Origin: a virus
Taxonomy: Duplodnaviria > Heunggongvirae > Uroviricota > Caudoviricetes
Length of the DNA stretch: 52,473 bases
Reading direction: 5' to 3' (one strand)
IMG/VR virus record: IMGVR_UViG_2541047750_000003
Location: 1 to 52,473 of that record
The translations under genes were made by a program, and so were the position numbers. This document shows positions 49,949 to 50,222 of the stretch, one piece after another (positions within the stretch are counted from its first letter, which is position 1; each line of letters begins with the position of its first letter). The notes below the pieces were generated by a model. It did no database searches. It was given only the letters and a program-made list of their open reading frames with translations, and had not been told where the DNA came from.

Positions 49949-49974
49949 ACCCCGCTTTGCGCGGGGTTTTCTTT
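49949..49974. terminator. bidirectional terminator after the J-like gene
   Basis: ccccgc-tttgc-gcgggg flanked by A-run and T-run. Confidence 0.6.
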
Positions 49975-50222
49975 TAGTAGTTAGCTACACAATTCGACGG
50001 GCTACCGATGCGGCGCATATTGTGATCTAGTTCATGACACCATTGACCAGTATATGGAAGTTTTTCAGTGTCATAGACAAGATGACCATTAGCATCATAG
50101 ACAATTTCTTGAGGAATTACTCCGCTATTTGGCAGGTTGTGCAATGCAGCATCTTTGTCAACAGCACAACCAGTAAGAGCAACAGCCGCAGCGAATAATA
50201 CCACTTTGAGCATGTTTTTCAT
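49974..50222 (-). CDS. moron lipoprotein (82 aa)
   Basis: MKNMLKVVLFAAAVALTGC: signal peptide with lipobox LTGC; opposite strand, directly downstream of J-like gene. Confidence 0.6.
   Translation of the reverse strand: MKNMLKVVLFAAAVALTGCAVDKDAALHNLPNSGVIPQEIVYDANGHLVYDTEKLPYTGQWCHELDHNMRRIGSPSNCVANY

What the first reader, a model, noticed from the sequence alone, without database searches (positions are those of the whole stretch)
49974..50222. Lipoprotein gene on the opposite strand immediately after the J-like gene
Seen in sequence: signal peptide with lipobox LTGC and its own terminator and regulatory region. Established knowledge: lambdoid and T5-like phages carry outer-membrane lipoproteins at comparable positions (cor, llp) that block the phage receptor for superinfection exclusion. 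Inference: this could play that role for the receptor recognised by the adjacent fibre proteins.
Basis: partly seen in the sequence, partly recalled or inferred. Interest (0 to 1): 0.5.

Follow-up and report, generated by a model that had tools for sequence, protein, structure and literature searches.

The report
LamB-directed phage superinfection-exclusion lipoprotein
This is a real 82-residue phage lipoprotein gene whose near-identical relative has already been shown by experiment to make E. coli resistant to phages that enter through the maltoporin LamB, so it is an ordinary member of a known class.

Summary
Observation confirmed. The ORF at 49974-50222 (-) encodes an 82-aa prolipoprotein with lipobox LTGC and Cys19. 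It converges on the J tail-tip gene and shares one bidirectional hairpin terminator with it. The gene is under strong purifying selection (dN/dS 0.03-0.14).

The window is a temperate, non-lambdoid 'mEpimmI' coliphage genome. The protein is the 'type-C Lpp' of that group. Its mature part matches Lpp010 (mEp010 gp116) at 59 of 64 residues. Plasmid-expressed Lpp010 excludes the LamB-dependent phages mEp010, mEp044, mEp554 and lambda, but not mEp013 or the OmpA-dependent mEp021 and mEp515 (PMC11893012).

Homologues occupy the same slot in Seuratvirus, Nonagvirus and Dhillonvirus phages. The J C-terminus next to them is always one of two types, both used by LamB-dependent BASEL phages. The window carries the type not tested in the mEp work.

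However, the gene is not a sequence relative of Cor or Llp, the receptor concerned is LamB, and that receptor is read by J, not by the lateral fibre.

How a lipoprotein disables LamB, which has no plug, is unknown. Structure prediction failed, so the fold could not be compared. Novelty: already known. Interest: low.

The parts
49974..50222 (-). lpp: 82-aa prolipoprotein (type-C Lpp of mEpimmI phages), stop codon included
   Evidence: ORF list and sequence. PHROG 12984 'lipoprotein', E = 2.4e-27. 89-95% identical to the MagusPhagus, mEp010, mEp013, mEp044 and mEp554 proteins. dN/dS 0.03-0.14.
50169..50222 (-). signal peptide, residues 1-18 (MKNMLKVVLFAAAVALTG). The lipobox L16-T-G-C19 spans 50166-50177.
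   Evidence: Read directly from the sequence. PS51257-type rule met here and in 23 of 25 homologues.
49977..50168 (-). mature lipoprotein, Cys19-Tyr82. The conserved core runs from P31 to Y82, with motifs PNSGV.P, DTEKLP.TGQWC and RRIGSPSNC, and conserved Cys62 (nearly invariant) and Cys78 (invariant).
   Evidence: Alignment of 25 family members. 59 of 64 residues identical to Lpp010.
49948..49968 (.). bidirectional intrinsic terminator hairpin shared by J (+) and lpp (-)
   Evidence: Found on both strands by the scan. dG -17.7 kcal/mol, z = -4.4. Relatives carry annotated terminators at the same place.
50230..50234 (-). Shine-Dalgarno-like GGGGA, 7 nt upstream of the ATG (GAGGA in relatives)
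   Evidence: Sequence and alignment.
50223..50399 (.). conserved divergent intergenic region between lpp (-) and the lateral tail-fibre gene (+); presumed promoter region, promoter not located
   Evidence: 93% mean column identity in six phages. The stretch 50298-50420 is 97.6% identical to the region upstream of cor in an E. coli M15 prophage. No sigma-70 consensus hit inside it.
45108..49943 (+). J tail-tip / central-fibre gene (1611 aa). The last ~125-150 aa (about 49566-49940) form the receptor-binding C-terminus, here 'type 2'.
   Evidence: Pfam GpJ domains end at residue 1457. The C-terminus is 66% identical to MagusPhagus, 42-43% to the LamB-dependent GottfriedDienst and WildeMaa, and 24% (global) to mEp010.
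50400..52196 (+). lateral tail-fibre gene (context; bounds the slot on the other side)
   Evidence: PHROG 1419 tail protein, E = 1e-222. The same J / lipoprotein / fibre order occurs in mEp phages, KurtStettler and 9g.

Best explanation
The gene encodes a small lipoprotein that protects the cell against other phages using the maltoporin LamB, the receptor this phage's own J protein most probably uses.

Proposed path (inferred): the protein is exported by Sec, lipidated at Cys19 and cleaved by signal peptidase II. Because residue +2 is Ala, the Lol system sends it to the outer membrane. There the ~63-residue mature domain, probably stabilised by a Cys62-Cys78 disulfide, acts on LamB itself. J proteins of LamB-dependent phages then cannot engage the receptor productively.

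What is shown: the gene's anatomy, its homology, and its co-occurrence with LamB-type J C-termini. What is shown only for the 92%-identical orthologue: the exclusion phenotype. What is inferred: direct binding to LamB, the face of LamB that is bound, and expression from the prophage.
For: Lipobox, +2 Ala and conserved cysteines.

The mature part matches Lpp010 at 59 of 64 residues. Lpp010 excludes mEp010, mEp044, mEp554 and lambda. All of these need LamB, while mEp021 and mEp515 need OmpA and are excluded only by their own, different lipoprotein (PMC11893012).

Lambda's J C-terminus has no detectable similarity to either C-terminus type found next to this gene. The common target must therefore lie on the host side.

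All 32 phage records with the window's type of J C-terminus also carry a homologue of this lipoprotein.

Within Seuratvirus, KurtStettler (type 1) and GottfriedDienst and WildeMaa (type 2) are all experimentally LamB-dependent. Their lipoprotein cores are 100% identical although their J C-termini are only 23-25% identical.

The LptD-dependent VogelGryff appears in neither homologue list.

An E. coli prophage of the same phage group carries the FhuA-exclusion gene cor in the same slot behind the same upstream region.
Against: No experiment exists on this allele or on a phage with this J C-terminus.

Lpp010 does not exclude mEp013, which is LamB-dependent and encodes an identical mature lipoprotein. 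The block is therefore not absolute.

The published assay used IPTG-driven plasmid expression. It included no adsorption, lipidation, localisation or binding data.

LamB has no plug and no known allostery, so the Llp-FhuA mechanism cannot simply be transferred (PMC9586334).

No promoter was located. The AF2 models were of low confidence.
Confidence: 0.85

Rival explanations
1. The lipoprotein acts after adsorption. It would block the trigger for DNA ejection or the passage of DNA and tape-measure protein through the periplasm, without masking the J-binding surface of LamB. Known precedents are HK97 gp15 and the Gram-positive lipoprotein Ltp.
For: LamB has no plug or known allostery through which a periplasmic lipoprotein could alter the outer loops (PMC9586334). 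No adsorption assay has been published. mEp013 escapes although it needs LamB.
Against: Specificity follows the receptor, not the injection machinery. mEp021 and mEp515 share the tail chassis of mEp010 but use OmpA, and they are not excluded. The unrelated phage lambda is excluded. The gene co-occurs with LamB-type J C-termini across four or more phage groups that have different tails.
Confidence: 0.12
2. The effect is indirect. The lipoprotein would lower the amount of LamB in the outer membrane, by disturbing its assembly or stability or by provoking envelope stress, rather than binding assembled LamB.
For: The phenotype was obtained by over-expression from Ptac. A phage that needs fewer receptors, such as mEp013, could escape.
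Against: The mature domain is highly conserved under strong purifying selection (dN/dS 0.03-0.14). It has been kept in virulent phages that have only minutes to act. Both points fit a specific binding partner better. OmpA-dependent phages are unaffected.
Confidence: 0.1
3. Its main biological role is lytic conversion. It would inactivate LamB on the infected cell and its debris so that progeny virions are not wasted, as proposed for T5 Llp. Protection of lysogens would be secondary.
For: Homologues sit at the same locus in strictly virulent Seuratvirus, Nonagvirus and Dhillonvirus phages. This role is discussed for Cor and Llp in PMC11990801.
Against: It uses the same molecular activity, so it is a difference of emphasis rather than of mechanism. 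In this temperate phage the gene is transcribed against the late operon and is insulated by a terminator. That is the typical layout of a prophage-expressed moron.
Confidence: 0.15
4. It is an unrelated lipoprotein: an outer-membrane spanin subunit, or a host-fitness moron of the Bor type.
For: It is small, lipidated and phage-encoded.
Against: The lysis cassette (endolysin and Rz-like spanin) lies at 24.2-25.2 kb, 25 kb away. There is no Pfam, NCBIfam or PADLOC match to Bor, Rz1 or anything else. The orthologue has an exclusion phenotype.
Confidence: 0.02

Closest known systems
Lpp010 (mEp010 gp116), 'type-C Lpp' of the mEpimmI phages (Negrete-Mendez et al. 2025, PMC11893012); PHROG 12984
   Same: Same phage group and the same slot (J, hairpin, convergent lipoprotein, lateral fibre). 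Both are 82 aa with an identical lipobox. 59 of 64 mature residues are identical, and the last 37 residues are identical.
   Different: There are five conservative changes in the mature part (positions 24, 39, 40, 44, 45). Here the gene is paired with a 'type 2' J C-terminus that is only 24% identical (global alignment of the last 125 aa) to that of mEp010. This allele is untested.
Unnamed lipoproteins downstream of the J gene in LamB-dependent Seuratvirus, Nonagvirus and Dhillonvirus phages (Bas21-23, CAjan, 9g gp69, EP23), flagged as putative exclusion proteins by Maffei 2021 and van den Berg 2022
   Same: The core P31-Y82 is 69-73% identical. Gene order and convergent orientation are the same, and the link to LamB is the same.
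   Different: They have a different signal peptide and a shorter linker after the lipid-anchored Cys (77 aa in total). Their phages are virulent. None has been tested experimentally as far as the searched literature shows.
Cor (phi80, T1, N15, mEp167): FhuA-directed exclusion lipoprotein
   Same: A small outer-membrane lipoprotein with conserved cysteines that excludes phages sharing a receptor. In an E. coli M15 prophage, cor occupies the identical slot behind the same upstream DNA.
   Different: No sequence homology: PHROG 1119 gives E = 0.16 over the signal peptide only. Its target is a TonB-dependent transporter with a plug, not a porin.
Llp of phage T5 (PDB 8A60, 7QJF)
   Same: Similar size, lipobox, a pair of cysteines in the mature part, a position next to the receptor-binding gene, and a receptor-inactivating function.
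   Different: hhalign aligns only the first 20-23 residues, which are the signal peptide. Llp works by binding the FhuA plug from the periplasm and folding two outer loops inward. LamB has no plug.

Membership tests
Type-C Lpp / PHROG 12984 (LamB-associated exclusion lipoprotein) | Full-length sequence homology to family members | tested here: met
   PHROG 12984 E = 2.4e-27 over residues 7-82. 89-95% identical to mEp and MagusPhagus proteins. 27 family clusters were found; in the 25 aligned, 19 columns are invariant.
Type-C Lpp / PHROG 12984 (LamB-associated exclusion lipoprotein) | Signal peptide with lipobox, and a non-Asp residue at +2 | tested here: met
   LFAAAVALTGC, Cys19, +2 Ala. The rule is met in 23 of 25 members.
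Type-C Lpp / PHROG 12984 (LamB-associated exclusion lipoprotein) | Position: convergent, directly after J and before the lateral fibre gene, with a hairpin terminator between | tested here: met
   The same layout is seen.
Type-C Lpp / PHROG 12984 (LamB-associated exclusion lipoprotein) | Adjacent J C-terminus of a type used by LamB-dependent phages | tested here: met
   42-43% identity over the last 125-127 residues to the J C-termini of GottfriedDienst and WildeMaa, both LamB-dependent. The match is by homology only; the receptor of this phage is untested.
Type-C Lpp / PHROG 12984 (LamB-associated exclusion lipoprotein) | Expression excludes LamB-dependent phages | not testable with these tools
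   Shown for Lpp010 only (PMC11893012).
Cor family | Sequence homology of the mature domain | tested here: not met
   PHROG 1119 E = 0.16, residues 4-22 only. No NCBIfam cor hit.
Cor family | Equivalent genomic slot in related prophages | tested here: met
   E. coli M15 prophage: cor sits behind the same upstream region, 97.6% identical over 123 bp.
Llp (T5 lytic conversion lipoprotein) | Sequence or profile homology of the mature domain | tested here: not met
   hhalign aligned 20 columns (query residues 1-23, Llp residues 1-20), all signal peptide. No PDB sequence hit at E <= 10.
Llp (T5 lytic conversion lipoprotein) | Same fold, with a disulfide tying the termini together | tested here: inconclusive
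   Two conserved Cys are present (C62 nearly invariant, C78 invariant). Both AF2 models were unreliable (pLDDT 57.6 and 59.1), so no fold search was run.
o-spanin (Rz1-like) | Located within or next to the i-spanin gene in the lysis cassette | tested here: not met
   Endolysin and Rz-like genes lie at 24205-25235. This gene is 25 kb away.

The most novel reading that the evidence does not exclude
The family may disable a plug-less trimeric porin by a mechanism not yet described for exclusion lipoproteins. One option is surface exposure with capping of the LamB loops. Another is insertion into, or clamping of, the channel from the periplasm. The block would be independent of which of three unrelated or highly diverged J C-termini (type 1, type 2, lambda) attacks, yet some J variants such as mEp013's can escape it. 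This window would then supply a natural pairing of the tested lipoprotein type with the untested J type, useful for mapping that escape.
Probability: 0.35. Interest if true: 0.55.

Novelty: already known. Interest (0 to 1): 0.2.

Why it matters
As an annotation it settles the gene. It should be named a LamB-directed superinfection-exclusion lipoprotein, where PGAP and most phage records call it 'hypothetical protein'. It also predicts that this phage uses LamB.

The wider interest lies in the family rather than in this copy. van den Berg et al. (2022) noted that it is unclear how lipoproteins could block LamB or LptD, which lack the plug and allostery exploited by Llp.

The comparison made here adds a modest constraint. 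Identical lipoprotein cores serve J C-termini that are only 23-25% identical, and a 92%-identical one also stops lambda. This argues that the lipoprotein acts on LamB itself rather than competing for one particular epitope.

Tried and rejected
- **Structure prediction:** AlphaFold2 was run on the full protein with 25 sequences, then on the conserved core with 17. It gave pLDDT 57.6 and 59.1. I therefore ran no fold search, and the question of an Llp-like fold stays open.
- **Family and structure libraries:** Pfam, NCBIfam, PADLOC and PDB sequence searches gave nothing meaningful.
- **Distant relatives:** an exhaustive profile search of 1.84 billion representative proteins found only 4 clusters. 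There was no bridge to Cor or Llp.
- **Promoter:** the sigma-70 scan found none in the intergenic region.
- **CRP co-regulation with lamB:** I considered that the CRP-like site at 50339-50354 might co-regulate the gene with lamB, which is CRP-dependent. I dropped it as a specific link. The same DNA precedes cor, which targets FhuA. One-mismatch sites of this kind also occur 4 times in the window against 1.4 expected.
- **MalT boxes:** GGATGA repeats in the 5' leader looked like MalT boxes, but they are not conserved among the six phages.
- **Small upstream ORF:** the 38-codon ORF at 50268-50384 (-), annotated in mEp records, has no family match. In E. coli M15 it is fused to an over-extended cor annotation. 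I treat it as probably non-coding.
- **Other scans:** Tandem Repeats Finder and Rfam found nothing.

Full report

Yes. The minus-strand ORF at 49974-50222 encodes 82 residues: MKNMLKVVLFAAAVALTGC|AVDKDAALHNLPNSGVIPQEIVYDANGHLVYDTEKLPYTGQWCHELDHNMRRIGSPSNCVANY.
- **Signal peptide.** The N-terminus has two lysines, an uncharged hydrophobic core and the lipobox L-T-G-C with Cys19. It satisfies a PROSITE PS51257-type rule, as do 23 of 25 homologues. The residue after the Cys is A, G or S and never Asp. By established E. coli Lol sorting rules this predicts an outer-membrane location.
- **Translation start.** A GGGGA Shine-Dalgarno-like element (GAGGA in relatives) lies 7 nt before the ATG.
- **Terminator.** The J-like gene (45108-49943, +) ends 30 bp before the convergent stop codon of this gene. 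An 8-bp G+C-rich hairpin (49948-49968) flanked by T-runs on both strands nearly fills the gap. It has dG -17.7 kcal/mol and z = -4.4. The terminator is real but bidirectional and shared with J.
- **Upstream region.** The 177-bp AT-rich spacer (50223-50399) shows 93% mean column identity among six phages. The consensus scan placed no sigma-70 promoter in it.
- **Coding status.** Pairwise dN/dS among six related phages is 0.03-0.14.

**2. What the window is.**

The window is collinear with the temperate, Nus-dependent, non-lambdoid 'mEpimmI' coliphages mEp554, mEp044, mEp010 and mEp013. Identity is about 87-88% over 77-82% of the first 25 kb, and there are similar matches at the tail end.
- J carries the GpJ Pfam domains up to residue 1457. 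The last ~150 residues have no Pfam family.
- The gene after the lipoprotein (50400-52196) is a lateral tail fibre.
- The lysis cassette, with endolysin and an Rz-like spanin, lies at 24.2-25.2 kb. The lipoprotein is therefore not a spanin subunit.

**3. What the protein is.**

It has no Pfam, NCBIfam, PADLOC or PDB sequence match. It matches PHROG 12984 'lipoprotein' at E = 2.4e-27.

tblastn finds it in 44 phage records:
- MagusPhagus: 95%.
- mEp010, mEp013, mEp044 and mEp554: 89-91.5%.
- Seuratvirus (CAjan, Seurat, BASEL Bas21-24), Nonagvirus 9g and Dhillonvirus (EP23): about 70-77% over residues 30-82.

The family is narrow. It comprises 27 clusters at 90% identity among 5.8 billion proteins, and 4 clusters at 50% identity among 1.84 billion in an exhaustive profile search. 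Invariant or nearly invariant positions include C19, PNSGV.P, DTEKLP.TGQWC, R71, G73, N77, C78 and Y82.

**4. Published function of the orthologue.**

Negrete-Mendez et al. 2025 (PMC11893012) call this protein the 'type-C Lpp' of mEpimmI phages.
- They expressed mEp010 gp116 (Lpp010) from a Ptac plasmid. It excluded mEp010, mEp044, mEp554 and lambda.
- It did not exclude mEp013, nor the OmpA-dependent mEp021 and mEp515. Those two are excluded by their own, different type-A lipoprotein.
- Keio mutants showed that mEp010, mEp013, mEp044 and mEp554 all require LamB.

The mature part of the window protein matches Lpp010 at 59 of 64 positions. The differences lie at positions 24, 39, 40, 44 and 45, and the last 37 residues are identical.

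**5. New comparative evidence gathered here.**

The lipoprotein travels with J C-termini of two diverged types.
- **Type 1** occurs in mEp010, mEp013, mEp044, mEp554, KurtStettler, 9g and HK97.
- **Type 2** occurs in the window, MagusPhagus, GottfriedDienst, WildeMaa, SeppeHuegi, CAjan and EP23.
- The two types share only 22-30% identity. Lambda's J C-terminus resembles neither.

Both types are used by experimentally LamB-dependent phages. KurtStettler, GottfriedDienst and WildeMaa are listed as such in S5 Table of PMC8594841. HK97 is cited as LamB-dependent in PMC6832061.

All 32 records with a type-2 C-terminus carry the lipoprotein. The LptD-dependent VogelGryff does not appear among the hits.

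Within Seuratvirus, the lipoprotein core of KurtStettler (type 1) is 100% identical to that of GottfriedDienst and WildeMaa (type 2). The lipoprotein therefore follows the receptor and the phage lineage, not the J variant. Together with the exclusion of lambda, this places its target on the host side, most simply LamB itself.

The coupling is not obligatory. HK97 has a type-1 C-terminus and no such gene.

**6. The slot is a cassette site.**
- In mEp021 (OmpA-dependent) the slot holds a 311-aa virion protein plus the type-A lipoprotein.
- In an E. coli M15 prophage of the same phage group it holds two small genes plus cor, the FhuA-exclusion lipoprotein. Cor lies on the same strand and behind DNA that is 97.6% identical to window 50298-50420.

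The similarity breaks at an 18-bp palindrome (50297-50314). This positional equivalence independently supports an exclusion role. It also suggests that the promoter lies in the shared segment.

**7. Mechanism.**

I commit to an outer-membrane lipoprotein that inactivates LamB as a phage receptor (confidence 0.85 for the function). Direct binding to LamB is inferred, and I put it at about 0.55-0.6.

The Llp model cannot be carried over. In that model a periplasmic lipoprotein grips the FhuA plug and folds two outer loops inward (PDB 8A60). LamB has no plug. van den Berg et al. raise exactly this problem for LamB- and LptD-directed lipoproteins, and suggest that such proteins might be surface-exposed.

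The escape of mEp013 shows that the block is partial or depends on the J variant. mEp013's own mature lipoprotein is identical to Lpp010.

The rival explanations are a post-adsorption block, indirect loss of LamB, and a primary role in lytic conversion. Each is listed with its test. Structure prediction failed (pLDDT 57.6 and 59.1), so no fold comparison with Llp was possible.

**8. Comparison with known families and verdict.**

The gene works like Cor and Llp but belongs to neither family. Only the signal peptides align. It is a member of the type-C Lpp family, which has already been characterised experimentally.
- **What is new here:** only the allele and its pairing with the untested type-2 J C-terminus.
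- **Novelty:** already known.
- **Interest:** low (0.2).
- **Residual value:** the open question of how a lipoprotein disables LamB.

Noticed in passing
window 50339-50354 and 50297-50314: The conserved lpp / tail-fibre intergenic region contains a near-consensus CRP-type site (TGTAACACAGATCACA, one mismatch to TGTGA-N6-TCACA) and an 18-bp perfect palindrome (TATTGATATAAATCAATA). The palindrome marks the point where similarity to the cor locus of an E. coli M15 prophage ends. One-mismatch CRP-like sites occur 4 times in the window against 1.4 expected, so significance is modest.
   Followed up: partly
window 50358-50366 (+): An extended -10-like element, TGgTAAAAT, lies about 34 bp upstream of the lateral tail-fibre start codon. 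A GGAG Shine-Dalgarno element sits at 50388-50391. This may be a separate promoter for the fibre gene downstream of the J terminator. It was read by eye; the scan tool did not report it.
   Followed up: no
L010 (E. coli M15, NZ_CP185789) 2704-4167: A related prophage carries cor in the same slot, and an IS903B transposase is inserted between the shared intergenic region and the fibre gene. The annotated 127-aa Cor ORF appears over-extended at its 5' end. A lipoprotein-type start (MKGFKNIAIAAMVAGMVGC) lies 48 codons in, and the extension runs into the conserved non-coding DNA.
   Followed up: partly
window 45108-49943 (J), about residues 850-1300: The central part of J consists of degenerate ~33-residue coiled-coil-like repeats (...LD.KTDASV.RLD.AIADE.SAR..AIS.VNASIS...), visible in the translation. 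Tandem Repeats Finder sees nothing at the DNA level. J length varies from 1478 to 1828 aa among close relatives, which suggests gain and loss of repeats.
   Followed up: no
window 50857-52178: The distal two-thirds of the lateral tail-fibre gene is 94% identical to side-tail-fibre genes of otherwise unrelated coliphages (PhiR49_2, ev243), and about 80-85% identical to Seuratvirus lateral fibres. The mEp relatives do not match here. The fibre tip has been exchanged horizontally.
   Followed up: no
L006 (mEp013) 2855-3103 versus L001 (mEp010) 2273-2521: The mature lipoprotein of mEp013 is identical to Lpp010 (64 of 64), yet the paper reports that Lpp010 does not exclude mEp013. mEp013 would therefore be insensitive to its own exclusion protein. 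Its J C-terminus is 69% identical to that of mEp010.
   Followed up: partly
window 50068-50096 (-), Lpp residues 43-61: The conserved core segment YDANGHLVYDTEKLPYTGQW weakly resembles the repeated 'W.DANGN....TE....G.W' motif of a 4467-aa repeat protein. That protein matched in nine stretches at E = 1.7e-8 in the exhaustive search. From memory, the motif looks like the calcium-binding loop of SdrD-type B repeats. This was not tested.
   Followed up: no
window 50268-50384 (-): A 38-codon ORF upstream of lpp is annotated as a gene in the mEp and MagusPhagus records. It has no family match and overlaps the conserved regulatory DNA. It is probably an over-call by the gene finder.
   Followed up: partly
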